Below are positions 9,020 through 48,813 of a stretch of 48,813 nt of DNA, in pieces; within the stretch, counting starts at the first letter, position 1; the number at the start of each line of letters is the position of its first letter. This stretch comes from Candidatus Nomurabacteria bacterium RIFCSPHIGHO2_02_FULL_42_19 (GTDB lineage Bacteria > Patescibacteriota > Minisyncoccia > Phycocordibacterales > UBA9973), in NCBI GenBank assembly GCA_001785615.1, contig MFUG01000005.1:1-48813 (forward strand), read 5' to 3'. Under the pieces are notes generated by a model. The model searched no databases and was not told the origin of the DNA. It was given only the letters and a program-made list of their open reading frames with translations. The position numbers were made by a program, and so were the translations under genes.

Positions 9020-9074
9020 GTATCTTGTCTTTTGTCGTTGATACTGTCATACTTAATGGTTGAAGGAGTTCCCC

Positions 9075-9296
9075 ATGAACATCGTCTCCCCGAAGTACGA
9101 GCCAGATTTCTTCACGGATGACGAACTGCTGGAGACCCAAAAAATCCTCAGCATGAACGGCACGATACACACCGTCGATGGGAAAGTGACAGTGGTCCTT
9201 CCCATCGGCCACGGTTTTCTCGAGGTTAGCGGCATGTCTCTTGGTGATGCGTGTCGGGTTGCTTTCGCAACCCTGAACACGGTACGAGAGAACTAG
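9075..9296 (+). CDS. GC-rich orphan small protein (73 aa), island A
   Basis: ATG 9075 follows GAAGGAG (9062-9068) with a 6-nt spacer. The ORF is 52-57% GC on two hand-counted lines. A stem-loop follows. The track start 9060 is a TTG that overlaps this GAAGGAG, so it has no SD of its own. Confidence 0.55.
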   Translation: MNIVSPKYEPDFFTDDELLETQKILSMNGTIHTVDGKVTVVLPIGHGFLEVSGMSLGDACRVAFATLNTVREN

Positions 9297-9313
9297 CCCC
9301 CATCGTGTTCCAT

Positions 9314-9340
9314 GTGCCGGAGAGTTCAACTCTCCGGCAC
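9314..9340. terminator. 11-bp GC-rich stem-loop between convergent island A ORF and purA
   Basis: GTGCCGGAGAG-TTCAA-CTCTCCGGCAC forms a perfect stem, 18 nt after the island A stop and 8 nt before the purA stop. Confidence 0.6.
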
Positions 9341-9347
9341 CCACATT

Positions 9348-10727
9348 TTACCTCCAATACCGCTCCACCACGTGATGCTCTTCCACTCCGGTGCCTACAT
9401 AGATAATTTTAGCGCCTAAAGTTTTTTCCAAAAATTGAACATATTGAAGCGCTTCTTTGGGCAACTTTTTACCGTAATCCGACAACTCCCCTTTCCAGCC
9501 GGGAAATATTTTATAAATTGGTTTTATATCAACACGAGATAAATCAAAGGGGATCTGGTTTATTTTTTTTCCATTGACGACATAAGAAATACACACTTTT
9601 ATTTTCTTAAAACCATTCAGCACATCTAGTTTAGTTAAAACCAACTCTGTCGCATTGTTCATTTCTATGGCATATTTCAAAAGCGGAATATCCATCCACC
9701 CAGTCCGACGCAGACGCCCGGTAGTGGCCCCGATTTCATTGCCAAAATGCCTTAACGCTATTCCCTGCTCAAAATCACTTTTACTGTTTGGATTTGGTTT
9801 TGGGAATTTTGTTTTTTCATCTATCGCTTTTTTATCGCGGCACCAGATTGCCGAATCCTTGCCGCCAAGCTCTGTAGGGAAAGGTCCCTCACCCACTTTC
9901 GTCGTATAGGCCTTAAGAATTCCAATGGCGCCCCCGATGTAAGAAGGGGGAATGCCAAGGCCTGTACCCACTCCGCTTGAGATTGTGTGGGAAGATGTGA
10001 CGTAGGGGTAGTGTCCAAAGCGAACATCCAAGAGCGCTCCCTGCGCTCCCTCCGCTATCACTTTTTTCCCCAAAGAAAGGGCTCTTAGCACTATTCCTGA
10101 CGAGTTCTCTGATTTAATAGAGCGTAAAAATTTTACACCTTCAAAAAATTCCTTCTCTTTTCCCCTTAATTCTTGATTGGTCATTTTATATCCAAAATCA
10201 TTCCGCAAAGTTCTCTTGTGTTCGTCACAAAGAGTTTTATATTTATTTTTGAAATCATTATAAAAAATATCTCCGACCCGGAGTGCCCGGCGGAGAGTAA
10301 GGTCCGTATAAGACGGTGAAATTCCCTTCCCAGTTGAACCGATTTTTTTCTTTCCTTTAGTTTTTTCGGAAATGGAATCAAGAATGAGATGGGTGGGCAT
10401 GGTGAGAACCGCATGTGGGGAAACAGACATCCGTCCCAGAAAAGATACATTTCTCGGTATGGTCTTGGCTTCCCCTTTTAACGCGGCTGGATTAATAACC
10501 ATCCCGGCGCCCAAGTGTATTTGCGCTTGGCCGAAGACACCCGATGGAATCAAATGAAACACATAACACTTACCCTTGTGCCAAATAGTATGTCCCGCAT
10601 TATTTCCACCCTGAAACCTAACAATCAGATCTTCCGTCCTCAAACCGGAAGCGATACGAGCGACGCCTTTGCCCTTACCCTCATCTCCCCACTGGAGTCC
10701 TATAATTGGAGTAATTTTGGATCTCAT
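9348..10727 (-). CDS. purA: adenylosuccinate synthetase
   Basis: 459 aa with the QWGDEGKGK P-loop and GNNAGHT. Confidence 0.95.
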   Translation of the reverse strand: MRSKITPIIGLQWGDEGKGKGVARIASGLRTEDLIVRFQGGNNAGHTIWHKGKCYVFHLIPSGVFGQAQIHLGAGMVINPAALKGEAKTIPRNVSFLGRMSVSPHAVLTMPTHLILDSISEKTKGKKKIGSTGKGISPSYTDLTLRRALRVGDIFYNDFKNKYKTLCDEHKRTLRNDFGYKMTNQELRGKEKEFFEGVKFLRSIKSENSSGIVLRALSLGKKVIAEGAQGALLDVRFGHYPYVTSSHTISSGVGTGLGIPPSYIGGAIGILKAYTTKVGEGPFPTELGGKDSAIWCRDKKAIDEKTKFPKPNPNSKSDFEQGIALRHFGNEIGATTGRLRRTGWMDIPLLKYAIEMNNATELVLTKLDVLNGFKKIKVCISYVVNGKKINQIPFDLSRVDIKPIYKIFPGWKGELSDYGKKLPKEALQYVQFLEKTLGAKIIYVGTGVEEHHVVERYWR

Positions 10728-12256
10728 TACTGTTTTTTATAATTCGGTGCGGGAGTGACCATGAAAATATCATGCACGTGACTTTCATTTAGTCCCGCCG
10801 CAGTAATAGTGTAATATGAAGCATTTCGCATCAGTTTAATTTCTTTTGCTCCCAAATAACCCATCCCAGCGCGTAGCCCGCCTATGTATTGATGAATCAC
10901 TTCTCCTACTGCGCCCTTATAAGCGACATGGCCGGAAACACCCTCTGGCACTAACTTGATTGGGTCATACTGCTCATCCTGAAAATAACGGTCTTTGGAC
11001 CCTCGTTGCATAGCGCCCAAGGACCCCATGCCGCGATATTTTTTATATTTTTGGTTATTAATATCAATAGTATCTCCCGGGGATTCGTCCGTACCCGCAA
11101 AAGCGCTTCCGGACATTATTACATCCGCTCCAAAAACAAGCGCTTTGACCACATCCCCGCTATGTTTTATTCCGCCGTCCGCGATAACCGGAATATCAAG
11201 TGGTCCGCATACGCCGTAGACAGCAGCAATGGCTGAGAGCTGTGGTACCCCTACACCGGAGACAATGCGAGTGGTGCAGATTGAACCAGGGCCAATGCCA
11301 ACTTTTACCGCATCGGCTCCTGCTTTGATTAGGTCAAGGGCGGCCTGGCCGGTCGCAATATTGCCCGCAATGATATCAAGTTTCGGATAAGCGGCGCGAA
11401 TTTTTTTAACAACTTCCAATACACCTTTTGAATGTCCATGGGCTGTATCCACGCAAACGACATCCACCTGGGCTTCCACCAATGCCTTAACATGCGCGAG
11501 AGCGTGAACGCTTGTGCCGACAGCTGCTCCTACGCAGAGCCGACCTTCTTTATCTTTCGTAGCGTTTGGATATTCTTTGGACTTGGCCATGTCGCGATAA
11601 GTAATTAACCCCACCAATTTATTATTTTTATCTACCAATGGGAGTTTTTCAATACCGTGTTTTTTAAATAAATTATTTGCCTCGGATAAGCTTGTATCGG
11701 CAGTACCAGTAATAATCTTGGTCGTCATTATTTCTTTAATCGGAGTATTTTCATTTTTCTCCATCGTTTCAAAGCGCAGGTCGCGATTGGTGACGATGCC
11801 CATCAATTTTCCTTCTTTATCTATAATAGGAATGCCCCCGATTTTGTGTGTTTTCTGTATGCGCAGAGCATCTCCGACAGTGGCCGAGACAGGTAAAGTA
11901 ATTGGATTTGCAATCCGACCCGACTCGTATCGCTTTACTCTTTGTACTTCTTTTACTTGATCATCAATACCAAGATTTTTATGAATAATGCCGATACCTC
12001 CGTGTTGCGCCATAGCTATGGCCATGGTGCTTTCGGTGACTGTATCCATGGCGGCGGACATGAACGGAATATGTAAAGTTATATTTTTTGTTAGCTGGGT
12101 CTTGGTTATCACATCCTTCGGCAAAATTTCACTATACCCAGGTACCAGTAGAACATCATCAAAGGTAAACCCAGCTCCCAATACCTTTGGTATAGATATC
12201 TGCCCGAACGACCGTCCAGTCGGGCGGGTTTTCTTTTTTGATTTCCCAATAGCCAT
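10727..12256 (-). CDS. guaB: IMP dehydrogenase
   Basis: 509 aa with [14 protein letters not shown], tandem CBS domains, the catalytic [11 protein letters not shown] loop and GSLGAM. The N-terminal extension of about 20 aa is uncertain; an alternative TTG start lies near 12183. Confidence 0.93.
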
Positions 12257-12292
12257 ATGTCTTATCCAATATACACGGAAATGGTTTTTTCG

Positions 12293-13327
12293 TCAAATTG
12301 TGCTGATGTCGCTCCCCTTCGGGTAAATTATTAAATCATCAGTCCTGTTTTTCCAGGTTTGCTCTATGGCATCCAAGATTCGCCAGCTCTCCAGCACTTC
12401 ACCGCTTGAGATAAATAAATCATGATTCCCGGACATGGTGGCGGAAATGACTCGTTCATACGCCTCCGGTTCATGTTTGATGTTAAAAATTTTTTCAGTA
12501 CCGTTTTTGTATTTAATTTTTATTTGGGTCAATTTTTCACTTAGGGCCTTACCGGTAGAGAGTACTATTCTAACCCCACGCCAAGCCGGATCATTTGATA
12601 CTAAATTAATCGAGACGAATGTTTCTGTCATACTGCCCGGATTATTTACTTCTTCCCGGTAGCCCGCATACTGTCCCCTCTTTACACACTCATTTTTATT
12701 AATATCACAGACAATCTCTAAATTTTTTAAGGCCTCATGGCGGCGAACGGTAACAAAAGATCCAGCCAAGACCGAGGCCGCCATTTCTAGAAGATGGCTT
12801 TGAACAAAGTCCTTCAATGCTCCGGTTTGTTCATAAAAATTAACTCGGCTTTCAATATCTATTTTTTCACTGGCAATTATTTCAATACTAGCGACATTGT
12901 TTCTATCCCATTTTTCGGTCATTACATTTTGCAAGGATTCTTTTGTCAGATAATGGTCAACCCGATAAATTTGCTCTTCAGAAAAATATTTATCAATATG
13001 TTCCACCAGGTCTTGAGCTGACTTCAAATCCTTCCCGAAAGGTTTTTCGAGCATTATTTTTACATTACTCTTATTCTCTTTGCCGAAGTTAGTACTTATT
13101 ATTTCTACGGCGTCCAGCACCCCCTCGGAAGGAATTGCTAAATGGAATATCTTTTCCCCACCTTCTTTAATTAAATTTTTCAAGTTACCATAATCTTTTC
13201 TGGAAACAGGAATAATGGCCCCACTATAATTCATATGTTGCATATTTCTAATGGCCGGCAACAAATAACGCCTTGCCAGATCCCCAGAGGCGCCGAAAAT
13301 TATATAGGTTGTTTGACTGCGTTTCAT
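12293..13327 (-). CDS. zwf: glucose-6-phosphate dehydrogenase, unusually compact (344 aa)
   Basis: Carries FGASGDLA, EKPFGKDL and RVDHYLTKE (equivalent to the RIDHYLGKE active-site motif). It is about 130 aa shorter than typical Zwf. Confidence 0.75.
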   Translation of the reverse strand: MKRSQTTYIIFGASGDLARRYLLPAIRNMQHMNYSGAIIPVSRKDYGNLKNLIKEGGEKIFHLAIPSEGVLDAVEIISTNFGKENKSNVKIMLEKPFGKDLKSAQDLVEHIDKYFSEEQIYRVDHYLTKESLQNVMTEKWDRNNVASIEIIASEKIDIESRVNFYEQTGALKDFVQSHLLEMAASVLAGSFVTVRRHEALKNLEIVCDINKNECVKRGQYAGYREEVNNPGSMTETFVSINLVSNDPAWRGVRIVLSTGKALSEKLTQIKIKYKNGTEKIFNIKHEPEAYERVISATMSGNHDLFISSGEVLESWRILDAIEQTWKNRTDDLIIYPKGSDISTI

Positions 13328-13364
13328 TTATTTTTGATTTATTTTATGCCCGTTGTGCCCACAT

Positions 13365-13715
13365 CTAAAAGGACAGAGTCACTTTTCGATACTTTTTCAG
13401 CTCTTTTTTTGTAAGACGAAAATCCGAATTTCCCCCGTCAATTAAAATACTATTCTGCGGAATTATTTTTAGCCAGAGATCTAGTTCTTCTTCCATACTT
13501 AGAGCAGGAATCATCAACCAAATGATTGCTCGCTCTTGCCCAAAGGCCGCCAGGACTTCTTCTTTTGTATAAGCAGACACCATTCCTAGATCTTTCGCTT
13601 CATCAACTTTTTCCCTGCTCCGATTGTGGGCGATAACAGTAAATTTATCTTCATGCAGTTTTCTTGCAACCTGCATTCCCATTTTTCCTAAACCAATTAC
13701 CGCAACTTTAATCAT
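13365..13715 (-). pseudogene. gnd: 6-phosphogluconate dehydrogenase N-terminal (Rossmann) remnant, 116 aa
   Basis: VAVIGLGKMGMQVARKL ... IDGGNS matches the NAD(P)-binding domain only. The ORF stops about 20 aa after GGNS, 37 nt before the zwf start. The catalytic C-terminal two thirds are missing. Confidence 0.6.
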
Positions 13716-13756
13716 AAGGGGATTATACTCTATATTTATTTGTCGTCTAGGAGAAG

Positions 13757-13785
13757 TTGATTTTCTTTTTTTTTTAAACTAATCT
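13757..13785 (+). promoter_or_regulatory. candidate sigma70-type promoter for island B (TTGATT-17-TAATCT)
   Basis: The -35 is at 13757-13762 and the -10 at 13780-13785, in the AT-rich spacer upstream of the ParB-like ORF. Confidence 0.35.
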
Positions 13786-13856
13786 TCTTTAAGAGTTACT
13801 GTACGAGCCCCCTGTGGGCTGTTGTTTGGAAACGTTCTTCAAAACAAGGAGCTCAC

Positions 13857-15272
13857 ATGGCAACTGCAGACAAGCAAGTTCGAGTTACCGGTGAACAGGA
13901 AATTAGCCAGGTACGTCGCATTCCGCGGAGTCAGATTCGGCGTTTCCCAGATCAGCCCCGCAATTTTTTCGATGCAAAGGACATGAATGACCTCGCCGCG
14001 AGCATTGAAGAAATTGGACAACAAACGCCCATCGTCGTCAAAGTCGTCACTGGCGATCCGAAGCATAGCTTCGAGTTGGTGGATGGCGAACGACGCTGGA
14101 TCGCCTGTGGAATGGCGAACGTGGATACCATGCTCGCCTGGGTGCGACCAATCGCAGACAGCGACGAACAGTTCATTGCGTCGGTGGTTGGCAACTTCGG
14201 ACGGTCCGGTCACACGGCACTCGAGATCTCTCAGGCCGTCGATCGCATCAGAAAGTCGAAGCGAATGCAGGAGCTTTCGCCCGGGGAACAAGTGGCGCGA
14301 ATCGCGAAGATCTTCGCCCGTTCTGAACCCTGGGTGTACTCACATCTCGCAATCCTGCGGCTTCACCCCGACGTGCAAGCAATGATGGCGCCGATGATCC
14401 CCGAAGAGGAGCGTCTGAGCCATACGCTTGGCGTGTTCATCTCGAGCTTGCACCAGGATCTCCAGCTCGAGATCGCCAAGGCGGTGCTGGCGAAAAAGAT
14501 GAGCCTCAACCAGGCGCGTCTCTACGCTCGGCAAGTTGCTGAGGAAGCGGGCGTGAAAGTTGGAACCAACCGAGGGAGAGCACCAGGTCTTCCTTCGCAA
14601 AGTTGGGTTCGTCTCAAGAACATGGTTCGAATCGCCCAAGAGGGACTCAACGCACTTCTCGTACCGGCCGTTCAGGACGCACTCAAGAAACGTGACCCGG
14701 CGGATCGTGCCGTCATGGCGACGGAACTGGAACAGTGTATTGCTCGTCTGAATCAAATGAGGGTAATTCTAATCGAAATGCCTTCAACTCTTGAGGTCGA
14801 GTGTCCACGACCTGTGTCGATACCCGCATCGGTGGTAGTCGACATCCGATTCCCACGCAAAGTGAAAGAGCTAACGACGCCGATTGCTCAAGCTCTTCCA
14901 CCTCCGCTGGCTCGAAAACCTGTTCCCACTCCCAACATACCAAAGGAGCAATCCATCGAGCTGTCACACAAGGTGCTGTCCGCATTGTTCTACCGGGACG
15001 GTCAACCTATCATGAACTTGGGTCGTCGTCGACTTCAAGAGGAACTGCCGGACATCGATGACTTGGATATTGCAGTAAGCCAAGCACTTCGGGCAGCGAA
15101 AAATCACTGGCGAATTACACCCGAAGGACCAAAGGAAAAACAGAATTTGATCCGGCTGATGCATCGTTTCCGGCATAACTACGGCAACTGCAAGGAATTT
15201 GCCCAAGCGCTGGAACATGCCAGGAAATGGGATGAATCGGACGATCCGGTTTCTCTGCATTTCAAAAAGTAG
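13857..15272 (+). CDS. orphan ParB/Srx-domain protein with ParB-type HTH and unassigned C-terminal half (471 aa), island B
   Basis: Motifs are FPDQPRNFFD, LAASIEEIGQQTPIVV and LVDGERRWIA (ParB box II-like), then an HTH segment VARIAKIFARSEPWVYSHLAILRLHPDVQ. AAGGAG lies 5 nt before the ATG. One hand-counted line is about 57% GC. Confidence 0.85.
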   Translation: MATADKQVRVTGEQEISQVRRIPRSQIRRFPDQPRNFFDAKDMNDLAASIEEIGQQTPIVVKVVTGDPKHSFELVDGERRWIACGMANVDTMLAWVRPIADSDEQFIASVVGNFGRSGHTALEISQAVDRIRKSKRMQELSPGEQVARIAKIFARSEPWVYSHLAILRLHPDVQAMMAPMIPEEERLSHTLGVFISSLHQDLQLEIAKAVLAKKMSLNQARLYARQVAEEAGVKVGTNRGRAPGLPSQSWVRLKNMVRIAQEGLNALLVPAVQDALKKRDPADRAVMATELEQCIARLNQMRVILIEMPSTLEVECPRPVSIPASVVVDIRFPRKVKELTTPIAQALPPPLARKPVPTPNIPKEQSIELSHKVLSALFYRDGQPIMNLGRRRLQEELPDIDDLDIAVSQALRAAKNHWRITPEGPKEKQNLIRLMHRFRHNYGNCKEFAQALEHARKWDESDDPVSLHFKK

Positions 15273-15343
15273 TACGCGCGCTTGGGCGCCAAACCAAGAT
15301 GCAAGCTCGACTTTTCGAGCAGGGCCGAGAGTCCAAACTCTCA

Positions 15344-15386
15344 ATAGCTAGCAACACCCGAAAGGAGAATGTTTGCTGGCTATTTT
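15344..15386 (+). terminator. stem-loop plus T-run after the ParB-like gene
   Basis: ATAGCTAGCAA (15344-15354) pairs with TTGCTGGCTAT (15373-15383) as 11 bp with one G-U pair. TTT then an AT-rich run follows. Confidence 0.5.
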
Positions 15387-15403
15387 AATTTCAGTAAACT
15401 TTT

Positions 15404-15447
15404 ATGAATTACCTAACTTATGCGACCGCTAGAGTTAGGTAATTCAT
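15404..15447. repeat. perfect 15-bp inverted repeat with 14-nt spacer
   Basis: ATGAATTACCTAACT (15404-15418) and AGTTAGGTAATTCAT (15433-15447). Confidence 0.9.
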
Positions 15448-15480
15448 CGAGTAATTTCGGCATATGCTGAAATCTTATAA

Positions 15481-23788: not shown

Positions 23789-23828
23789 GTGAGTAAATTC
23801 TGCATATGCGTAAATTACTCACTTTTTT
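23789..23828 (+). terminator. rho-independent terminator of topA
   Basis: GTGAGTAAATT...AATTACTCAC stem (23789-23822) followed by TTTTTT. Confidence 0.8.
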
Positions 23829-23868
23829 CTATTACAGTATTTTGCAAAATACTAGAATAGAAATATCA

Positions 23869-23894
23869 AAGGCCTGAACATTTTGTCAGGCCTT
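23869..23894 (-). terminator. 9-bp stem-loop downstream of island C ORF
   Basis: AAGGCCTGA-ACATTTTG-TCAGGCCTT. A second hairpin CCGGCG/CGCCGG lies at 23896-23916. Confidence 0.5.
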
Positions 23895-23943
23895 ACCGGC
23901 GAGTCATACCCGCCGGGGTCGCTTGAAGCTTCTGCTCCCTTGC

Positions 23944-24234
23944 TTATAGTCCGAGCGTGTACGCACAGACCGGACATCTGTAGTACACACTCGAGCGCAT
24001 TGTGGGTGTCATGCACATTGGGCACAGTGGCCCCGACGGTGCGACGAAAACGCTCGTCGCTGCCACGAATACTTTCGCTGGTTCTGCTGCTTCAGCGGCG
24101 AGTATTCCCGGAAAGTCGTAGCAGTACACTGTCACTCTGCACTTAGGGCACTTCCAGCCTCGCCCGTCATGGGTGATAAGCATGCCAGTGCCACATGTCT
24201 CACACGGCGGTAAACGCGCTTCTGACTCTGTCAT
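23944..24234 (-). CDS. GC-rich orphan protein with two CxxC...CxxC zinc-ribbon modules (96 aa), island C
   Basis: Cys pairs are C11/C14 with C29/C32, and C71/C74 with C87/C90. GAGAGAGGAGAG provides an SD 8 nt before the ATG, and the ORF has its own TTGACA-17-TAAATT promoter. Confidence 0.6.
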   Translation of the reverse strand: MTESEARLPPCETCGTGMLITHDGRGWKCPKCRVTVYCYDFPGILAAEAAEPAKVFVAATSVFVAPSGPLCPMCMTPTMRSSVYYRCPVCAYTLGL

Positions 24235-24259
24235 GTGTCACTCTCCTCTCTCTAATAAA

Positions 24260-24288
24260 AATTTAGAATTTCTTAGCAAATTTGTCAA
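24260..24288 (-). promoter_or_regulatory. promoter of island C ORF (TTGACA-17-TAAATT)
   Basis: The -35 is at 24288-24283 and the -10 at 24265-24260 on the minus strand. Confidence 0.55.
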
Positions 24289-24310
24289 CTAAGAAGTCGA
24301 GGAGTATAAT
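24282..24310 (+). promoter_or_regulatory. promoter of the Rel/SpoT homolog (TTGTCA-17-TATAAT), leaderless spacing
   Basis: The -35 is at 24282-24287 and the -10 at 24305-24310. The ATG at 24317 is 6 nt after the -10. The -35 hexamer overlaps the island C -35 on the other strand. Confidence 0.65.
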
Positions 24311-25795: not shown

Positions 25796-26796
25796 ATACT
25801 GAATTTTGAAATGTCGTATAGTTTAGCATCGTCTTCTTTTACTTCATCTTTACTTCTGTCATCTATGGCGTCCTGTGGCGCTTCTTCTTTATTCTCCGGC
25901 GTTATCTCTACCTTTGGATTAGAACTTTTCGCAATATGATTTTCCAGCATTTCCTCCGGCTTCTTTTCGCGCATTTCTTTTTTAATCAAGTCCAGAATAG
26001 AACGCAGGTCGTCCGTAGAAAAAAAATCAATTTTAATTTGCCCGCCTAATTCTTTTCTTTCGATATGCACCCGAGTACCCAGCTTATCTTGAAATTCTTC
26101 TTCTAATTCTAGAATTTCTGGATCCGGCAGAAACTCTTTCTTGCGCACGCGGTCAAAGGCAATCTTCCTGGCTAGACGTTCCGCTTCTCGTACTGTAATT
26201 TTCTTATATAAAATTTCTTTGAACAACACTATCTGTTCTTCGGGATGGTCCGCTAACATAAGGATGGGACGAGTATGTCCTTCAGTTATTTTACCCTCCG
26301 ATAAAGCAGTTAAGATTTCTTCCGAAAGGGTTAAAATACGGAGAGTGTTGGAGACATATTCACGGCTCCGACCTATCTTTTTCGCCACTTCATTATGAGT
26401 GAACTTAAACTCACTGACTAAACGAAAAAAGGCACGAGCGCGATCAACCACGTTCAAATCCTCGCGTTGCAAGTTTTCAATAATAGCAAGCTCCAGCTTC
26501 ATCATGGCCGTGTCGCCGGTGCGGATAATTACCGGTACTTGCAGAACCCCGGCAATTTTCGCCGCGCGCAGTCGGCGTTCTCCGGCAATGAGTTCATATT
26601 CAGTCACTAATCCTCCTTCTTCTTTTTCGACTTCCATTCTAGAAACTGTCAGAGGTTGCAGTACCCCGTACTGCTTTATGGAAAGAGCCAGGTCCGCTAG
26701 ACGCGCTTCGTCAAAATCCCTACGAGGTTGATAAGGGTTTGGTTTTATTTTATCGGTATCAATCCAGAAAATTGAGTTGGAATACAAGTTGGACAT
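25792..26796 (-). CDS. parB: chromosome-partitioning protein ParB/Spo0J
   Basis: 334 aa with IKPNPYQPRRDFD, LIAGERRLRAAKIAG, an HTH and an acidic C-terminal tail. No parA is adjacent. Confidence 0.9.
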   Translation of the reverse strand: MSNLYSNSIFWIDTDKIKPNPYQPRRDFDEARLADLALSIKQYGVLQPLTVSRMEVEKEEGGLVTEYELIAGERRLRAAKIAGVLQVPVIIRTGDTAMMKLELAIIENLQREDLNVVDRARAFFRLVSEFKFTHNEVAKKIGRSREYVSNTLRILTLSEEILTALSEGKITEGHTRPILMLADHPEEQIVLFKEILYKKITVREAERLARKIAFDRVRKKEFLPDPEILELEEEFQDKLGTRVHIERKELGGQIKIDFFSTDDLRSILDLIKKEMREKKPEEMLENHIAKSSNPKVEITPENKEEAPQDAIDDRSKDEVKEDDAKLYDISKFSI

Positions 26797-38414: not shown

Positions 38415-38750
38415 ATGAAAGAATCAAAGAAAATTATGAATGATGACTTAAAAAATCCTTTCCGAAACTACATGGACAGCTTCAGGATACATGAAGAAGT
38501 GGAGAACCCTGTACACGAAATCGTCAACATATACTACGAGATGCGCAGGTGGGATAATATGCCAAAAAAATTTTACGAGAAAAAAGAACGAAGCTATCCG
38601 AAGCTTGCGCATGAAGCAAAAATGTTATACGAGGCCTGCGAGGAGGAGTTGGAAGATGCGGTCTGGGCACTGGATAAAATGAAATACTTGGCCGACAAAG
38701 GAGGATTCGATTGGTCTATAATTACTTGCTTAAAACATAAATTGAAGTAG
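38415..38750 (+). CDS. hypothetical protein (111 aa)
   Basis: In-frame ATG at 38415 just past the mreB start. The upstream part of track ORF 38199-38750 is antisense to mreB. Composition is host-like. Confidence 0.5.
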   Translation: MKESKKIMNDDLKNPFRNYMDSFRIHEEVENPVHEIVNIYYEMRRWDNMPKKFYEKKERSYPKLAHEAKMLYEACEEELEDAVWALDKMKYLADKGGFDWSIITCLKHKLK

Positions 38751-38785
38751 AGTGGAAAAATTAATTTAAATAAAATAAAAAGAGT

Positions 38786-38813
38786 TTGACTTCACGAGTA
38801 GATAGTTTATAGT
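38786..38813 (+). promoter_or_regulatory. promoter of island D (TTGACT-16-TATAGT)
   Basis: The -35 is at 38786-38791 and the -10 at 38808-38813. Confidence 0.6.
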
Positions 38814-38836
38814 TTTAGATGAGGAGGAGAGTTCCT

Positions 38837-39031
38837 ATGTATTACGTTTTACTGCAGAAAGTGCCTGTCTGGGGTATTCCAGGGTTGTTGAAACCTGTTT
38901 GGACCACAGACGTGGAGAGGGCTCGTGCAGAGATGATCACGAGCCCGCAAGGAAGCACTCTGCTCCAAGAGGTTCCTCCGCGACCAAGCAGAATAATCGA
39001 TCCGCAGAGGGAATACCACGCCGGCAAGTAG
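38837..39031 (+). CDS. GC-rich orphan small protein (64 aa), island D
   Basis: ATG 38837 follows GAGGAGGAGA (38821-38830). An alternative ATG at 38819 sits at the predicted transcription start site. A perfect terminator follows. Confidence 0.55.
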   Translation: MYYVLLQKVPVWGIPGLLKPVWTTDVERARAEMITSPQGSTLLQEVPPRPSRIIDPQREYHAGK

Positions 39032-39040
39032 TGCCCCGTC

Positions 39041-39090
39041 AGAGGACGCAGCAAGGGCAAACCCTCGCTGCGTCCTCTCGACACTTTTTT
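39041..39090 (+). terminator. rho-independent terminator of island D
   Basis: Perfect 12-bp stem AGAGGACGCAGC/GCTGCGTCCTCT (39041-39052 and 39068-39079), then TTTTTT at 39085-39090. Confidence 0.85.
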
Positions 39091-39093
39091 ATT

Positions 39094-39774
39094 TTAGGCC
39101 ACAATTACCGTAAACTCCCCTTTTTGTTTAACAGGATTTTCTTTTAAGTATTCCAAAAGTTCTGCGGCCTTCCCGGTCTTAAATTCTTCATAAATTTTCG
39201 TAAGCTCTCGAGCTAGGCATACCTTTTTTTCTGGACAAAATTTTGCAAGCGATTCCAGTGTTTTCAAAATACGGTGCGGGGATTCGTAAAACGCAATTGT
39301 CCTTTTTGCTTCGGTAATTTCCTTGAACAATGTTTCTCTGCCCTTCTTGTGCGGCAAAAATCCAAGGAAAGTAAATTCGTGTATGGGCAAGCCGCAAGCC
39401 GAGAGCGCAGCGATAACGGCCGAAGGTCCCGGCACCGGAATTACATCTACGCTATAGCGTAGATTGTCGTTGTCCTTGATTTGCGCCACTAGCATGGCCC
39501 CAGGGTCGGAAATCCCCGGTGTACCAGCGTCGGAGACCAATGCCAAGTCCTTGCCCTCTTCTAGAAGTTTAAAAATTTTATCTGTTTTTGCCAATTTGCT
39601 GTGAGTATGATAACTTAGCGTGGCCGTGCCAATTCCATATTTATTGAGAAGCTTTTTCGTCTCGCGGGTGTCCTCGCATAAAATCAAGTCCACATTTTTT
39701 AATGTTTCAATTGCGCGGAGGGTGATATCCCCCAGGTTGCCTATCGGAGTAGCTACTATATAGAGCTTAGACAT
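39094..39774 (-). CDS. rsmI: 16S rRNA (cytidine1402-2'-O)-methyltransferase
   Basis: 226 aa with LYIVATPIGNLGDITLRA and LILCEDTR, a tetrapyrrole-methylase fold. Confidence 0.9.
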   Translation of the reverse strand: MSKLYIVATPIGNLGDITLRAIETLKNVDLILCEDTRETKKLLNKYGIGTATLSYHTHSKLAKTDKIFKLLEEGKDLALVSDAGTPGISDPGAMLVAQIKDNDNLRYSVDVIPVPGPSAVIAALSACGLPIHEFTFLGFLPHKKGRETLFKEITEAKRTIAFYESPHRILKTLESLAKFCPEKKVCLARELTKIYEEFKTGKAAELLEYLKENPVKQKGEFTVIVA

Positions 39775-40240
39775 TTGCCTTGCTCTCTTTTAGAACAGGT
39801 AAGCTCGCTAGAATGATTACGGCAAGTGAGACAATGAGAATATTTTTTAAGATGTATTGCCCTTCCAGCGTAGGAATACCAAGACCCTGCCAAGTTAGTT
39901 CCGGTAAAATAAACAACGGCAGAATAGTTGTGATAAAATGAAATGCCAAAAGAAAAAGGCCTAGGCGGGTGAGGGATGGAGTTATAAAAATAAGACCAAT
40001 GATAATTTCAAGTACGCCAAAGGCAATTAAGAATGGTTCCGGTGCAACCGTGGGCATGGTCTTATTCAAGAGCGCTATGATCAGGGGATTCGCCGCGCCG
40101 TTAGCGGAGAAAATCTTAATTGCTCCGAAATAAACATACACAGCGAAAATGGCAAAGCGCGCAAATGGCACTGCTATTCTCCCCGCCCAACTCACCAGCA
40201 CTTCATCCCAATTTTCTATTTTTTGATTAAAGTTTTGCAT
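39767..40240 (-). CDS. hypothetical 4-TM membrane protein
   Basis: 157-aa hydrophobic ORF overlapping the rsmI start. It begins 7 nt after the island E small ORF stop. Confidence 0.6.
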   Translation of the reverse strand: MQNFNQKIENWDEVLVSWAGRIAVPFARFAIFAVYVYFGAIKIFSANGAANPLIIALLNKTMPTVAPEPFLIAFGVLEIIIGLIFITPSLTRLGLFLLAFHFITTILPLFILPELTWQGLGIPTLEGQYILKNILIVSLAVIILASLPVLKESKANV

Positions 40241-40247
40241 TTTGAGA

Positions 40248-40397
40248 TTATATAACGTCTGTATAAAAAGTTAAAGGGGAGTCAACGTATCCCTCGATTT
40301 TTATGGGGAAGCTGTAAGAACTGAACGCCATGATGGCATTCGTTCTTACTTCGTACCTATACTGGTACGCGAATATTTCTCTTTCCACTCTTTCCAT
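40248..40397 (-). CDS. candidate 49-aa ORF behind structured leader, island E
   Basis: Hand translation gives MERVEREIFAYQYRYEVRTNAIMAFSSYSFPIKIEGYVDSPLTFYTDVI. AGGAG (40410-40406) lies 8 nt before ATG 40397. The ORF is below the ORF-track threshold. Confidence 0.4.
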   Translation of the reverse strand: MERVEREIFAYQYRYEVRTNAIMAFSSYSFPIKIEGYVDSPLTFYTDVI

Positions 40398-40580
40398 TTT
40401 ATCATCTCCTCGGTCGATTGACCGAAGAAGCCAGTTCGCGACATGCGATTAACCGTTACCGGTTACTGGCATCGCCCTACTAGGGGCGAGTCTCGGCTTG
40501 AAGCCAGACGGTTAAGTAATTTTTGAAAACAACCTAACTGCCTGGCTCCAATTTTGGCGAGAATTCAAAGAACGCTATAT
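40398..40580 (-). promoter_or_regulatory. structured 5' leader of about 180 nt (candidate cis-regulatory RNA, class unknown)
   Basis: Read on the minus strand: a long irregular hairpin; an alternative pairing of CUGGCUU; hairpin UCGCCC/GGGCGA; a three-way junction GCCAGU[AACCG-GUAA-CGGUU][UCGC-AUGUC-GCGA]ACUGGC; and a final 8-bp helix CUUCGGUC/GACCGAGG that buries part of the SD. Confidence 0.5.
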
Positions 40581-40586
40581 CCTAGT

Positions 40587-40615
40587 AGTATAGCATGTTT
40601 CAAGTCAAAAGTCAA
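40587..40615 (-). promoter_or_regulatory. consensus-like promoter for island E leader (TTGACT-17-TATACT)
   Basis: The -35 is at 40615-40610 and the -10 at 40592-40587 on the minus strand. Confidence 0.65.
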
Positions 40616-40664
40616 GCCAAATTGGCTTATATTATAAGGGCTAATTGACCTAAATTTGTATTAC

Positions 40665-40922
40665 TCATTTATAGACATCATGGTCGCCAACAGTCATAAA
40701 TACAACCTCGTCTTTTTTTAGATAGCCAAAAACTATTCTATAACGATAATCTATAGAAAAACTATATCGGGAGGCAAATCGACCATGTAATTTATGGACT
40801 TTCAGCATTTTGTGATTTTTTCTATCTTTAAAAAGTTCAGTTTTTTCTAGAACTTCTTCTTGTAATTCATTTGGGAGATTATTATATTGTTTAATAAAAG
40901 ATTGAGTATAAGCAATCTTCAT
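40665..40922 (-). CDS. type II toxin, RelE/ParE superfamily
   Basis: 85 aa. Size, basic composition and the C-terminal motif YRIVF...V..VGDHD are typical of RelE/YafQ-like toxins. It starts 4 nt after the antitoxin stop. Confidence 0.75.
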   Translation of the reverse strand: MKIAYTQSFIKQYNNLPNELQEEVLEKTELFKDRKNHKMLKVHKLHGRFASRYSFSIDYRYRIVFGYLKKDEVVFMTVGDHDVYK

Positions 40923-40926
40923 AAAA

Positions 40927-41148
40927 TTACTTAAATTTTTTAGATATTTTTCGTAAATCGCCTCTAAAAATCAAACCATCTTTTATATCCTGTTCGGCTC
41001 TAAGTAAGGCAAAAACTGCTTCCTCCTCAGTAAGGCGAGTCAGAGCTTTGCGCATAACTGCAGCTTTATTTTCCGCGAAACCGGATTTGACTAAATTATT
41101 TAAGGATAATTCCAATTTTGAATTTAAGGGCACAGATATTGTAGACAT
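40927..41148 (-). CDS. type II antitoxin (RHH/ParD-like)
   Basis: 73 aa immediately upstream of the toxin. The N-terminal beta-strand and helix pattern (ISVPLNSKLELSLNNLV) is consistent with an RHH fold. Confidence 0.65.
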   Translation of the reverse strand: MSTISVPLNSKLELSLNNLVKSGFAENKAAVMRKALTRLTEEEAVFALLRAEQDIKDGLIFRGDLRKISKKFK

Positions 41149-44276: not shown

Positions 44277-44285
44277 TTTTGTTCC

Positions 44286-45782: not shown

Positions 45783-45791
45783 ATTCTTCTT

Positions 45792-46202: not shown

Positions 46203-46208
46203 AATTCG

Positions 46209-46664: not shown

Positions 46665-46679
46665 TACTTCTTCAAAATG

Positions 46680-46931
<252 letters not shown>

Positions 46932-46976
46932 TTAAACTTATAATTTTTCGACTTATTAATAATTTTAATATTAATC

Positions 46977-47855: not shown

Positions 47856-48096
47856 CTTTTTCTTGCCCGTCTGTATCCTCAGGCGAAGGCGGGTCTAAGT
47901 CCTTTTTATATTGTCTTATTTCGCGGTAAATCCCGAAGCAAGTAACACAAAATCCCGCAAGCATTATGAGGAAAAAGAGTGCCTGGCTTCCGGTAAAACT
48001 TCCTACATATTTTCCCAATAAAACACCTAAGACCAAAGGAAATATTATCCAAGATGTCGTCTTGGTATAAAAAATGATTACTGGTTTCCAGTCCAC
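47845..48096 (-). CDS. small membrane protein at the head of the atp operon (AtpI/AtpZ-like)
   Basis: 83 aa with 2 TM helices and a GTG start at 48096, 6 nt after a TACAAT -10. It overlaps the atpB start. Confidence 0.45.
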   Translation of the reverse strand: MDWKPVIIFYTKTTSWIIFPLVLGVLLGKYVGSFTGSQALFFLIMLAGFCVTCFGIYREIRQYKKDLDPPSPEDTDGQEKDGK

Positions 48097-48102
48097 CCCT
48101 AC

Positions 48103-48131
48103 ATTGTAAATGAAAAATATATCGGATGCAA
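48103..48131 (-). promoter_or_regulatory. atp operon promoter (TTGCAT-17-TACAAT), leaderless spacing
   Basis: The -35 is at 48131-48126 and the -10 at 48108-48103. The GTG start is at 48096. Confidence 0.6.
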
Positions 48132-48140
48132 ATTGGTTTT

Positions 48141-48172
48141 ATACGTATTCGTATACGTATATATATACGTAT
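48141..48172. repeat. three phased copies of the 8-bp palindrome ATACGTAT (12-bp period)
   Basis: Copies at 48141-48148, 48153-48160 and 48165-48172, directly upstream of the atp -35. Confidence 0.85.
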
Positions 48173-48272
48173 AATTAACAATACCACCAGAGGAGCAGTG
48201 GCTCGTGGTGGCATATTACTATCTCTCGCGGGCGGGGCATCTCTGAAACGAGCCCCGCGCCCTTGAAGTTTT

Positions 48273-48536
48273 TCACTTTTTCTTTTTAATAAGCCGAAGA
48301 AATAGTGCCGACCCGGTCCAATCGTCGTCTTCGACGTCAAGACCGTCTTCCGCCGCTTTTTTTTCAGCATAGCGACGGAATGAGTCGTCTGCCACCTTTA
48401 GATCTGGTGGCGCGTCAGACAGGTAATCCCCGCCGACGAAGTGACCGCTAAGGCGGCTCACTCTCACGTAGCTGATCCCACTACGAAAGTCCAGCATCAG
48501 CCGTTGCCCCGCATGAAGCTTCGTGGCAACTGTCAC
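48273..48536 (-). CDS. GC-rich orphan small protein (87 aa), island F
   Basis: GTG 48536 follows GGGAGG (48548-48543) with a 6-nt spacer. A TTGACA -35 is at 48582-48577. GC-rich hairpins lie downstream at 48229-48263 and 48184-48211. Confidence 0.5.
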   Translation of the reverse strand: MTVATKLHAGQRLMLDFRSGISYVRVSRLSGHFVGGDYLSDAPPDLKVADDSFRRYAEKKAAEDGLDVEDDDWTGSALFLRLIKKKK

Positions 48537-48813
48537 GGAACACCTCCCAAACTTAGAATATATTAAAAAATAAAAGTGTCAAATATGGTTTTGTGGCTAC
48601 AAATAATTCCTCCCCGTCGTTCGGAATTTTCGCAGCCCGCCCCTCGCGGTTTTGTGTGCTCACAAAACATCGCTGCGGTCCTCACAACTAAAAAAGTAAA
48701 ACGGATTACTTTTTCTTGACGTTGTGATCTAATTATATCCTTTGCGCGAAATTATTTCGAGAACCAAAGCAACTAATCGCACGCTCCGCGTGCCTCCTTT
48801 CTCGAAATCAATT

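What the first reader, a model, noticed from the sequence alone, without database searches (positions are those of the whole stretch)
9060..48582. Six GC-rich, Shine-Dalgarno-led single-gene cassettes dispersed in intergenic gaps of an AT-rich genome
Islands lie at 9060-9345 (+), 13757-15390 (+), 23869-24288 (-), 38786-39090 (+), 40248-40615 (-) and 48184-48582 (-). Each holds one ORF whose DNA is visibly GC-richer than its flanks. Hand counts on 60-nt lines give 52-57% in islands A and B, against 23-48% in adjacent host genes. Every island ORF has a strong SD 5-9 nt before its start (GAAGGAG, AAGGAG, GGAGAG, AGGAGG, AGGAG, GGGAGG). Most end in a GC-rich stem-loop, and several have near-consensus sigma70 promoters built from AT-rich DNA. 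Host genes in the window essentially lack SDs. Five of the six products (49-96 aa) match no family I recognise. This looks like repeated acquisition of foreign one-gene modules, or an unrecognised class of dispersed accessory genes. It is my main candidate for the undescribed system.
Basis: partly seen in the sequence, partly recalled or inferred. Interest (0 to 1): 0.8.

Follow-up and report, generated by a model that had tools for sequence, protein, structure and literature searches.

The report
Moron-like single-gene cassettes in a CPR genome
Five small GC-rich genes, each with its own predicted promoter, ribosome-binding site and terminator, have been inserted between housekeeping genes of an AT-rich Nomurabacteria (CPR) chromosome, which looks like piecemeal horizontal gene acquisition at recombination hotspots and not one new coordinated system.

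Summary
Islands A, B, C, D and F are real compositional outliers: ORF GC is 0.53-0.56 against 0.41±0.04 for host genes, and GC3 is 0.56-0.68, above every host gene. All six ORFs have a Shine-Dalgarno match of at least 5 nt, against 6 of 46 host genes. Island E is not GC-rich; only its structured 178-nt leader is.

The five islands I looked up (A, B, C, D, F) recur identically in independent assemblies, so they are not chimeras. The host is a Nomurabacteria (CPR) bacterium. In about 160 related loci the same junctions are usually tight, and no relative encodes a homolog of A, C, D, E or F. The same junctions in other species hold different single-gene cassettes, so they are insertion hotspots.

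Island B encodes an atypical ParB/Noc/KorB-like protein. Its whole transcription unit recurs at different chromosomal sites in other CPR genomes, often as a pair with a σ54-type AAA+ gene. Its terminator is shared with an unrelated cassette that encodes a phage-family protein.

Best reading: self-contained, moron-like accessory cassettes from a GC-richer CPR mobile gene pool. They are not one system, because they share no motif. A, C and F are orphans; D has at most marginal similarity to other cassette ORFs at its site. Their functions are unknown.

The parts
9025..9053 (+). Island A: weak promoter candidate, TTGTCT-N17-CATACT
   Evidence: Read from the sequence. It matches only 8/12 of the consensus, so the scan did not report it.
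9063..9068 (+). Island A: Shine-Dalgarno AAGGAG, 6 nt before the ATG
9075..9296 (+). Island A ORF, 73 aa. An orphan with GC 0.53 and GC3 0.68.
   Evidence: The exhaustive HMMER search found only a strain variant, P0123. The variant matches to residue 62 and then diverges and reads on to 104 aa. My comparison by eye with the DNA suggests a 17-nt deletion.
9314..9340 (+). Island A terminator hairpin with a perfect 13-bp stem, lying between convergent islA and purA
   Evidence: I21.
13757..13785 (+). Island B promoter, TTGATT-N17-TAATCT. It is conserved in the L017 and L019 copies of the cassette.
   Evidence: alignment A1.
13806..13820 (+). Island B 5'-UTR inverted repeat AGCCC-N5-GGGCT, either an RNA hairpin or an operator. 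It is conserved in all 7 cassette copies examined, with one compensatory variant in L224.
13846..13851 (+). Island B Shine-Dalgarno AAGGAG
13857..15272 (+). Island B ORF, 471 aa. An atypical ParB/Noc/KorB-like protein with box I QPR, box II GERRWIA, an HTH, a disordered linker at residues 310-361 and a C-terminal helical domain with no match found.
   Evidence: Pfam ParB_N 4e-15. TIGR00180 scores 71.5, above its cut-off of 58.45. phrog_4715 1.5e-23. AlphaFold2 mean pLDDT 81.9. Foldseek matches to ParB, Noc and KorB with E down to 6e-13.
15273..15390 (+). Island B 3' UTR and GAAA-tetraloop terminator (hairpin about 15344-15383, then TTTTAATTT). The module is shared with cassettes in L017, L019, L173 and, at 94% identity, with an unrelated cassette in L047.
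24260..24288 (-). Island C promoter, TTGACA-N17-TAAATT. It lies back-to-back with the leaderless relA promoter.
23944..24234 (-). Island C ORF, 96 aa. An orphan with two zinc-ribbon motifs (CxxC-x14-CxxC and CxxC-x12-CxxC). SD AGGAG at 24243-24247.
   Evidence: Only a self hit among 5.8 billion proteins.
23869..23894 (-). Island C terminator hairpin followed by a T-rich tail
38786..38813 (+). Island D promoter, TTGACT-N16-TATAGT
38837..39031 (+). Island D ORF, 64 aa (SD AGGAGG at 38822-38827). It occupies a slot that holds diverse small SD-led ORFs in many relatives.
39041..39078 (+). Island D terminator with a 17-bp stem, followed by a T-run
   Evidence: (I10).
40587..40615 (-). Island E promoter, TTGACT-N17-TATACT, with an extended -10 TG
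40398..40575 (-). Island E structured 178-nt leader with four hairpins, the last of which partly sequesters the SD. This is the only GC-rich part of island E.
   Evidence: MFE -76.8 kcal/mol, z = -7.9. No Rfam match even at E <= 1.
40248..40397 (-). Island E ORF, 49 aa. Its GC (0.39) and codon usage are host-like, its coding status is doubtful, and it overlaps the promoter of h157.
48555..48582 (-). Island F promoter, TTGACA-N16-TATTCT
48273..48536 (-). Island F ORF, 87 aa with a GTG start (SD GGAGGTG at 48541-48547). An orphan.
   Evidence: Only a self hit.
48183..48260 (-). Island F 3' hairpins, including the terminator-like 48183-48202

Best explanation
Islands A, B, C, D and F are independent, self-contained accessory gene cassettes. 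Each is a complete predicted transcription unit: a sigma-70-type promoter, a leader with a strong Shine-Dalgarno sequence, one ORF, and a GC-rich intrinsic terminator.

They were acquired horizontally by this Nomurabacteria (CPR/Patescibacteria) lineage from a gene pool of about 52-57% GC. They were inserted between, or even within operons of, conserved housekeeping genes at recurrent insertion hotspots.

They behave like phage 'morons' but sit in a cellular chromosome. They add DNA relative to related genomes, differ in composition, and bring their own expression signals, so they can be expressed independently of neighbours that are mostly leaderless or lack an SD.

No recombinase travels with them. 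Insertion is therefore inferred to occur by recombination after DNA uptake (the window itself encodes DprA). This could be homologous exchange through the conserved flanking core genes. It could also be recombination between shared regulatory modules, such as the terminator common to unrelated cassettes.

What is shown: the compositional deviation, the absence from orthologous sites, recurrence of the island B unit at different sites, and the shared terminator. What is inferred: expression, the direction and mechanism of transfer, and the functions. islB is probably a CTP-dependent DNA-binding clamp or regulator that may act on the AGCCC-N5-GGGCT repeat in its own leader. islC is a double zinc-ribbon protein. 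The functions of A, D and F are unknown.

Island E is a different object. It is lineage-specific junction DNA carrying a strongly structured leader RNA, next to a probable RelE-type toxin-antitoxin pair.
For: Real and not chimeric. Islands A, B, C, D and F recur identically, in the same context, in independent assemblies: 8-21 contigs each for B, C, D and F from JGI, ENA or Logan, and A in two of the contigs fetched for B. Island E was not looked up on its own, but L192 and L187 span it unchanged.

Composition and codon usage. GC and GC3 z-scores are about 2.5-4.5. Synonymous-codon log-likelihood ratios are +0.03 to +0.33, against -0.28±0.07 for host genes.

Absence at orthologous sites.
- topA-relA: conserved in 43 species, and the gap is at most 135 bp in 27 of them, against 535 bp in the window.
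- gndN-pgl: a 5-bp gap in L024.
- HAD-purA: gaps of -40 to 94 bp in 3 loci.
- mreB-rsmI: the smallest gaps are 372-411 bp, against 707 bp in the window.
- tRNA-Ile to atpB: 270-460 nt in about 12 loci, against about 870 nt in this species.
- No tblastn homolog of A, C, D, E or F in about 160 related loci.

Hotspots. Other species carry different SD-led single-gene cassettes with terminators at the same junctions. Examples are L047 and L077 at the C site, about 15 loci at the D site, and L166 at the F site. Their GC3 excess ranges from none to +0.39, as expected for acquisitions of different ages.

Mobility of a whole unit. The island B cassette is conserved from the -35 box to the terminator. 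It lies at different chromosomal sites in L017, L019, L021 and L223-L225. Genome RIFCSPLOWO2_12_FULL_44_11 has an empty gndN-pgl site but carries the cassette elsewhere.

Constant module composition. The module's GC stays at 0.51-0.61 in hosts of 0.37-0.57 GC.

Shared regulatory module. Island B's terminator is 94% identical over 48 nt to the terminator of an unrelated cassette in L047. That cassette's protein matches phage family phrog_4301.

Literature. HGT, genomic islands and competence genes have been reported in groundwater Patescibacteria (PMC12455944). Morons are defined as independent transcription units with deviant GC and their own promoter and terminator (PMC3594210).
Against: No donor has been identified. 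islA, islC and islF have no homolog in 5.8 or 1.8 billion proteins. Viral-contig scans found nothing close.

There is no expression or translation evidence, and the population is clonal, so no dN/dS test of the orphan ORFs is possible.

One strain variant of islA has a disrupted 3' end, which hints at weak constraint.

At the D site, small ORFs that are GC-richer than their genome recur in many species and often end in a similar C-terminus. That could instead mean one native, fast-evolving gene.

The insertion mechanism is entirely inferred. No target-site duplications or recombination sites were found.

The promoter matches are weak evidence in AT-rich DNA.
Confidence: 0.62

Rival explanations
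1. The islands are native, fast-evolving small-protein genes and not foreign DNA. On this view they are a resident class of small genes in Nomurabacteria. Their GC-rich coding sequence, strong SD and large terminators reflect functional demands such as mRNA stability or a separate SD-dependent translation regime, and their sequences diverge too fast for homology to be detected.
For: At the mreB-rsmI slot about 15 of 46 related species have an SD-led 32-80 aa ORF on the same strand. Most are GC-richer than their genome, and many end in ...HxGK...ExK or ...xDK. No donors were found for A, C or F. SD use is rare among host genes in all relatives examined, whatever their GC.
Against: The slot holds at least two unrelated families plus singletons, and it is empty in 6 species. 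GC3 excess is graded from zero to +0.39 and is not a constant property. The A, B, C and F sites are empty in most relatives. Island B demonstrably sits at different sites in different genomes.
Confidence: 0.2
2. Some of the small islands (A, D, F and the E leader) are structured non-coding RNA genes or RNA regulatory elements, and their ORFs are incidental. GC-rich intergenic islands in AT-rich genomes are a classic ncRNA signature.
For: The E leader folds with z = -7.9. Whole-transcript z-scores are -3.6 to -4.8 for A, C, D and F. GC-rich DNA gives long ORFs on both strands; islands A and D, for example, are stop-free or nearly so in other frames. A, C and F are orphans.
Against: No Rfam match at gathering score anywhere in the islands, and none at E <= 1 in the two stretches scanned permissively (38700-40700, covering D and E; 47900-48813, covering F), apart from one chance-level CRISPR-repeat hit. 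Every ORF has a well-spaced strong SD and a start codon. Codon-position GC patterns are coding-like for A, D and F (GC2 lowest). islC has two complete zinc-ribbon motifs. The z-scores include the strong terminator hairpins. The D-site families conserve protein motifs, not DNA.
Confidence: 0.1
3. The six islands form one coordinated dispersed system, for example a regulon of foreign cassettes controlled by the KorB-like ParB protein of island B through a shared operator.
For: islB is structurally similar to KorB, Noc and ParB. It carries a conserved inverted repeat, AGCCC-N5-GGGCT, in its own leader. Five islands have similar composition and codon usage.
Against: No k-mer of 9 nt or more is shared by three or more islands. 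GCCC-N(3-8)-GGGC occurs only in B and inside the E leader. The other genomes that carry the island B cassette had no tblastn match to the five small ORFs in the stretches fetched around it.
Confidence: 0.03
4. The islands are assembly chimeras or contaminating fragments joined to an AT-rich contig.
For: Sharp compositional boundaries. Contigs from several assemblies break near the island F end of the window.
Against: Junction-spanning sequence identical to the window is present in many independent assemblies from different samples and assemblers.
Confidence: 0.01

Closest known systems
Phage 'morons' (Juhala/Hendrix; reviewed in PMC3594210)
   Same: Extra DNA relative to related genomes, with a single gene. 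GC content differs from the neighbours. Each has its own promoter and terminator and so forms an independent transcription unit. They are inserted between conserved syntenic genes and spread by horizontal transfer.
   Different: Here the recipient is a cellular chromosome, and the insertions lie between housekeeping genes (pur, pentose-phosphate, topA/relA, mreB, atp). The window contains no prophage. No phage source was found.
T4-type phage PeSL (promoter-early stem-loop) mobile regulatory cassettes (Arbiol et al. 2010; from my own knowledge, not retrieved here)
   Same: Small ORFs are bracketed by a promoter and a stem-loop. Regulatory modules are shared between unrelated ORFs and could mediate shuffling by recombination; compare the terminator that is 94% identical in the islB and L047 cassettes.
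   Different: Only the terminator module was seen to be shared, in about 5 loci. No shared promoter module was found. The six islands of this window share no module with one another. The setting is a bacterial chromosome, not a phage hyperplastic region.
Chromosomal HGT hotspots or 'islets' between core genes (Oliveira et al. 2017; from my own knowledge)
   Same: Accessory genes concentrate at a few intergenic positions flanked by conserved core genes, with different content in different lineages. No integrase is needed if exchange goes through the flanking homology.
   Different: The units here are unusually small (0.3-1.6 kb, one gene). They are unusually dense (5-6 in 49 kb of core genome in a streamlined CPR organism). 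Their translation-initiation signals also set them apart from the host genes.
ParB/Noc/KorB family of CTP-dependent DNA clamps (island B only)
   Same: The ParB_N domain has box I (QPR) and box II (GERRWIA). The HTH DNA-binding domain and the overall fold match ParB, Noc and KorB structures.
   Different: No ParA partner is adjacent to it. No ParB_C dimerisation domain was detected. It has a disordered linker and a C-terminal helical domain with no match found, or, in the short form, an adjacent σ54-activator-type AAA+ gene. It is a second copy beside the canonical three-domain ParB at 25792-26796. It travels as a relocating cassette.
Integron gene cassettes
   Same: Single-gene mobile units that end in an imperfect inverted repeat.
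   Different: Integron cassettes have no promoter, share attC sites and sit in arrays next to intI. Here each unit has its own promoter. The hairpins are all different and are followed by T-runs, so they look like terminators. There is no integrase and no array.

Membership tests
Phage moron | Extra DNA that is absent at the same position in related genomes | tested here: met
   Orthologous junctions are empty or tight in relatives for the A, B, C, D and F sites.
Phage moron | Nucleotide composition differs from the surrounding genes | tested here: met
   GC 0.53-0.56 against 0.41, and GC3 above every host gene, for A, B, C, D and F. Not met for E.
Phage moron | Own promoter and terminator, i.e. 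an independent transcription unit | tested here: inconclusive
   Consensus-like promoters and hairpin terminators are predicted, and for island B they are conserved across copies. No transcript data are available.
Phage moron | Resides in a phage or prophage genome | tested here: not met
   The flanking genes are housekeeping genes. No phage genes are present in the window. Viral-contig scans found nothing close.
Integron gene cassette | A shared attC recombination site at the 3' end of each cassette | tested here: not met
   No shared k-mer of 9 nt or more, and no common inverted repeat, among the islands.
Integron gene cassette | A promoterless ORF in an array next to an integron integrase | tested here: not met
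   The islands are dispersed single units with their own promoter-like sites. No integrase is present in the window.
Classical genomic island / integrative element | Integrase, flanking direct repeats, insertion at a tRNA 3' end | tested here: not met
   No integrase or direct repeats were found for A-E. Only the F region lies downstream of a tRNA-Ile. A separate polymorphic insertion abuts that tRNA just beyond the window end.
ParB/RepB/Spo0J family (island B) | ParB N-terminal domain with the CTP-binding arginine patch (GERRxxA) and box I | tested here: met
   Pfam ParB_N 4e-15. TIGR00180 scores above its curated cut-off. GERRWIA and QPR are nearly invariant in alignment A4.
ParB/RepB/Spo0J family (island B) | Central HTH DNA-binding domain | tested here: met
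   Weak HTH_ParB hit. The AlphaFold model aligns to ParB, Noc and KorB, including the DNA-binding domain.
ParB/RepB/Spo0J family (island B) | C-terminal dimerisation domain (ParB_C) and a partner ParA ATPase | tested here: not met
   No ParB_C hit. The neighbours are gndN and pgl. The C-terminal region is a disordered linker plus a helical domain with no match found.
Known structured RNA families (Rfam) | A covariance-model match at or near the gathering score | tested here: not met
   Only three tRNAs in the window, all outside the islands. Nothing at E <= 1 in 38700-40700 or 47900-48813 except one chance-level CRISPR-repeat hit.

The most novel reading that the evidence does not exclude
CPR/Patescibacteria may harbour a pool of integrase-less, promoter-to-terminator gene cassettes that circulate between species. 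On this reading they shuffle through shared regulatory modules, in a PeSL-like way but in cellular chromosomes. They would be translated through a strong Shine-Dalgarno route that the largely leaderless or SD-less host genes do not use, which would give acquired genes a separate translational regime. Within that pool, the relocating 'ParB-like CTPase ± σ54-type AAA+' module, with its conserved AGCCC-N5-GGGCT leader repeat, would be a new mobile CTP-switch system.
Probability: 0.15. Interest if true: 0.7.

Novelty: new variant of a known kind. Interest (0 to 1): 0.42.

Why it matters
CPR bacteria have tiny, streamlined genomes, and little is known about how they innovate. This window shows gene gain at single-gene resolution. 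Complete expression units have been dropped between, and even into, housekeeping operons at recurrent hotspots. They have a distinctive composition and a translation signal that the host's own genes mostly lack.

If this is general, three things follow. It gives a simple sequence signature (GC3 excess plus SD plus terminator in a tight junction) for cataloguing recent acquisitions and orphan small proteins in CPR metagenome-assembled genomes. It points to an unsampled mobile gene pool of about 55% GC. It also flags a widespread, relocating ParB-like/AAA+ module whose function is unknown.

Tried and rejected
1. rRNA or other known structured RNA as the explanation for the GC islands. Rfam at gathering score and at permissive thresholds, and ARAGORN, found only three tRNAs, all outside the islands.

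2. Chimeric assembly. Rejected because independent assemblies carry identical junctions.

3. A phage source. Single-protein scans of viral contigs with islB, islC, islF and the L047 protein found nothing. An exact-pattern scan for the shared terminator also found nothing. An alignment-based scan found ParB relatives only at 35% identity or less. INPHARED tblastn gave only generic ParB hits at about 30%.

4. Anti-phage defence. PADLOC gave no hits.

5. GCATATGC-core palindromes as island borders or recombination sites. There are only two copies. Both lie immediately downstream of host genes (pgl, topA), so I read them as host terminators, and the count is not significant.

6. A common operator or repeat linking the islands. 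None was found.

7. Population-level dN/dS on the orphan ORFs. Impossible, because the available strains differ by 1 SNP in 10.4 kb.

8. Homologs of islA, islC and islF. Only self hits or strain variants. P0124 is a spurious repeat protein.

9. The genes upstream of the ParB-like gene in L017, L019 and L021 as part of the unit. They are unrelated to one another.

10. Literature on SD or leaderless usage in Patescibacteria. Nothing specific was found.

Full report
**What is there**

The window is 48.8 kb at 42.4% GC. It is a bacterial chromosome segment packed with housekeeping genes:
- purL, cofD, purA, guaB
- a zwf/gnd/pgl cluster
- holB, dus, serS, dprA
- topA, relA/spoT, a canonical three-domain parB
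- murA, miaA, ddl, map, rseP, frr, mreB
- the atp operon

There are three tRNAs and no other Rfam family at gathering score. The best relatives of its Dus protein (72-73% identity) are Candidatus Nomurabacteria/Paceibacterota MAGs, so the host is a CPR/Patescibacteria bacterium. The exact sequence occurs in Rifle-aquifer and other groundwater metagenomes.

**Checking the observation**

A sliding GC profile shows peaks at the stated coordinates. The table compares the island ORFs, in their correct frames, with 46 host genes.

| Measure | A, B, C, D, F | Island E | Host genes |
|---|---|---|---|
| ORF GC | 0.53-0.56 | 0.39 | 0.411±0.042 (max 0.51) |
| GC3 | 0.56-0.68 | 0.48 | 0.403±0.061 (max 0.53) |
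| Synonymous codon LLR (islB model vs host model, bits/codon) | +0.03 to +0.33 | -0.21 | -0.28±0.07 (max -0.11) |

- GC3 differs at Mann-Whitney p = 3e-7.
- Other patches of about 50% GC (atpD, mreB, guaB, topA) are conserved host genes that are GC-rich at codon position 1, not at GC3.
- All six island ORFs have an SD match of at least 5 nt, against 6 of 46 host genes (Fisher p = 4.5e-5). Many host genes instead have a TATAAT-like hexamer 4-16 nt before the start codon, which suggests leaderless mRNAs.
- GC-rich hairpins follow A, B, C, D and F.
- Island E is the exception. Its overall GC is 0.43 (59th percentile). Only its 178-nt leader is GC-rich, and that leader is very strongly structured (-76.8 kcal/mol, z = -7.9).
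- Promoter-like hexamers precede C, D, E and F at 10/12, but such matches are frequent in this DNA.

**Not an artefact**

- B, C, D and F each occur with the identical protein, in the same gene context, in 8-21 contigs from independent assemblies in JGI, ENA or Logan. B, C and D were seen in all three sources; the F places shown were from ENA and JGI.
- Island A is identical in two of the contigs fetched for B.
- Island E lies unchanged inside L192 and L187.
- The population is nearly clonal, with 1 difference in 10.4 kb.

**Presence or absence in relatives**

I fetched 80 related loci around Dus from one genome per species, and 80 around the rsmI-like gene from metagenomes. None encodes a tblastn-detectable homolog of islA, C, D, E or F. 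islB matches only their canonical ParB.

| Site | In the window | In relatives |
|---|---|---|
| C: topA-relA | 535 bp | adjacent in 43 species; gap ≤135 bp in 27 |
| B: gndN-pgl | 1765 bp | 5 bp in L024, so island B split an operon |
| A: HAD-purA | 328 bp | -40 to 94 bp in 3 loci |
| D: mreB-rsmI | 707 bp | minimum 372-411 bp, holding only a conserved 111-aa gene |
| F: tRNA-Ile to atpB | about 870 nt | 270-460 nt in about 12 loci |
| E: atpC to rsmI | atpC-h73-h85-E-h157-rsmI | either atpC-h157-rsmI or atpC-h73-h85-rsmI |

Island E sits at the seam between the two arrangements seen in relatives.

**The junctions are hotspots**

Other species hold different single-gene units at the very same junctions.
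- **C site:** L047 has a 166-aa GC-rich SD-led ORF, L077 has a 90-aa one, and L045 and L069 have AT-rich ones.
- **D site:** of 46 loci, 6 are empty. About 15 carry an SD-led 32-80 aa ORF with a strong terminator on the same strand. These fall into at least two unrelated families plus singletons, and L177 has two in tandem.
- **F site:** L166 has a 133-aa ORF at GC 0.56 in a locus of GC 0.40.

The GC3 excess of these cassettes ranges from none (L177, L138) to +0.39 (L160). That spread fits acquisitions of different ages undergoing amelioration better than an intrinsic property of the gene class. In the Dus-anchored loci of relatives, GC3-plus-SD outlier ORFs are sparse, with 17 ORFs in 14 of the 75 loci scored. 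This window has five or six cassettes in 49 kb, although that crude scan itself picked up only B and C here.

**Island B as the informative case**

- **Family.** islB (471 aa) passes the curated NCBIfam ParB/RepB/Spo0J cut-off and matches Pfam ParB_N and phage ParB-like PHROGs.
- **Motifs.** It keeps box I (QPR) and the CTP-binding GERRxxA motif.
- **Structure.** An AlphaFold2 model (pLDDT 81.9) aligns over the N-terminal ~230 residues to ParB, Noc and KorB structures. This is followed by a disordered linker and a confident helical C-terminal domain with no match found.
- **Relatives.** Full-length relatives at 55-68% identity exist, and those with a source name are CPR (Nomurabacteria and other Patescibacteria).
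- **Location.** The gene lies at a different chromosomal site in every genome examined. Genome RIFCSPLOWO2_12_FULL_44_11 has an empty gndN-pgl junction (L024) but carries the cassette between mur genes and a PIN gene (L017).
- **Extent of conservation.** DNA conservation runs from the -35 box through a leader inverted repeat (AGCCC-N4-6-GGGCT, with one compensatory variant) and the SD. In the long forms it continues to a GAAA-tetraloop terminator, so the conserved unit is the whole transcription unit.
- **Two builds.** A short form (about 310 aa) is followed within about 10-20 nt by a σ54-activator-type AAA+ gene in 4 of 4 contexts, and a fusion protein also exists. L173 shows that AAA+ gene ending in the island B 3' module.
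- **Composition.** Module GC stays at 0.51-0.61 in hosts of 0.37-0.57 GC.
- **Shared terminator.** The island B terminator is 94% identical over 48 nt to the terminator of the unrelated L047 cassette. That cassette's protein matches phage family phrog_4301, and it sits at the island C hotspot.

**The small ORFs**

- **islC.** It has two complete zinc-ribbon motifs (CxxC-x14-CxxC and CxxC-x12-CxxC), which argues for a real protein. It has no homolog among 5.8 billion clustered proteins.
- **islF.** It is likewise an orphan.
- **islA.** An exhaustive HMMER search found only a strain variant that diverges after residue 62 and reads on to 104 aa. My comparison by eye with the window DNA suggests a 17-nt deletion.
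- **islD.** It is at most marginally similar to other D-site ORFs.
- **Profile libraries.** No Pfam, NCBIfam, PHROG or PADLOC family matches A, D, E or F.
- **Folding.** Whole-transcript folding z-scores of -3.6 to -4.8 include the terminators and do not decide between mRNA and ncRNA.

**Is it one system?**

No k-mer of 9 nt or more is shared by three or more islands, and no common palindrome or repeat exists. The islB leader repeat does not recur in the other islands, apart from an unrelated GCCC...GGGC hairpin inside the E leader. I therefore reject a single coordinated system and any integron-like or repeat-element mechanism.

**Interpretation**

The best-supported reading (about 0.6) is that A, B, C, D and F are moron-like accessory cassettes. 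Each is an independent expression unit of deviant composition, added between conserved genes. This matches the definition of morons (PMC3594210), except that the recipient is a cellular CPR chromosome and no phage source is known.

Transfer is plausibly by DNA uptake followed by recombination. HGT, genomic islands and competence genes in groundwater Patescibacteria are documented (PMC12455944), and dprA lies in the window. The route could be the flanking core genes or shared regulatory modules. This step is inferred.

The main rival (about 0.2) is a native class of fast-evolving small-protein genes. An ncRNA reading remains possible for some small islands (about 0.1), and it is the most natural reading for the island E leader.

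**Verdict**

The 'foreign one-gene modules' interpretation is supported. The 'undescribed system' interpretation is not. This is a new variant of a known kind: moron or islet-type acquisition, unusually fine-grained and dense, in a CPR genome with a contrasting translation-initiation signal. Two by-products may deserve follow-up: the relocating ParB-like ± AAA+ module, and the structured island E leader.

Noticed in passing
window 48728-48813 and beyond (L183:1-182; L184:797-868): There is an insertion polymorphism at the 3' end of a tRNA-Ile. Contig L184, which is 100% identical to the window over 535 nt, has an RRM gene followed by tRNA-Ile abutting window position 48727. The window strain (also L182, L183 and L185) instead continues with different, GC-rich, coding-looking DNA that ends in a stop codon and a hairpin. 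Contigs from several assemblies end within about 50-330 nt upstream of islF. This may be an integrated element next to island F.
   Followed up: partly
window 48591-48727: This non-coding stretch lies between tRNA-Ile and the islF promoter. It is 85% identical over 139 nt to the DNA downstream of tRNA-Ile in L140 and L142. That is unusually high for intergenic DNA between species whose proteins are about 76% identical. It has no Rfam match.
   Followed up: partly
window 40398-40575 (-): A 178-nt leader RNA with four hairpins (MFE -76.8 kcal/mol, z = -7.9). The last hairpin partly sequesters the SD of a doubtful 49-aa ORF. It matches no Rfam family at E <= 1, and no homolog was found in about 160 related loci. 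It is a candidate novel cis-regulatory or small RNA.
   Followed up: partly
window 40665-41148 (-): h73 (73 aa) and h85 (85 aa) form an AT-rich gene pair. h85 is RelE/StbE-like (24.1 bits, just below the cut-off of 27.9), so this is probably a type II toxin-antitoxin module. It is present in L138 and L147 but absent from the atpC-h157 junction of L105, L129 and L178.
   Followed up: partly
L021:10001-11911, L223:3974-5905, L224:5001-6937, L225:5001-6918, L173:1-680: A conserved two-gene module consists of a short ParB-like gene (about 310 aa) followed immediately by a σ54-activator-type AAA+ ATPase gene (about 325 aa). It lies at a different chromosomal site in each CPR genome, and a fused version exists (P0029). 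Its function is unknown.
   Followed up: partly
window 48139-48174; L040:15078-15111: A palindromic TATACGTAT-type repeat lies upstream of atpI. A 97% identical copy occurs in a different species' locus, so it may be an operator or regulatory site. A chance-level CRISPR-DR Rfam hit overlaps it.
   Followed up: no
window 12293-13715 (-): The pentose-phosphate genes look atypical. One is a 116-aa ORF containing only the NAD-binding domain of 6-phosphogluconate dehydrogenase. Next to it is a 344-aa G6PD-like ORF whose N-terminal domain matches only positions 85-183 of the Pfam model. Both are identical across assemblies and have counterparts in L024.
   Followed up: no
window 13722-13785 and 24260-24310: Compact divergent promoter pairs occur at two island borders. 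The leaderless gndN promoter (TAGACG-N16-TATAAT) lies back-to-back with the islB promoter. The -35 hexamers of the islC and relA promoters overlap on opposite strands. In both cases the insertion left, or supplied, a promoter for the downstream host gene.
   Followed up: no
window 23789-23863 and 15404-15473: AT-rich palindromes lie directly after topA and pgl. Two of them have a GCATATGC core, and similar ones occur in L047 and L057. They appear to be the host's own terminator type, in contrast to the GC-rich hairpins of the islands.
   Followed up: partly
window 38415-38750 (+): A conserved 111-aa gene of unknown function, with no Pfam or NCBIfam match, fills the minimal mreB-rsmI gap in relatives. 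It lies directly upstream of the small-ORF hotspot that contains island D.
   Followed up: no
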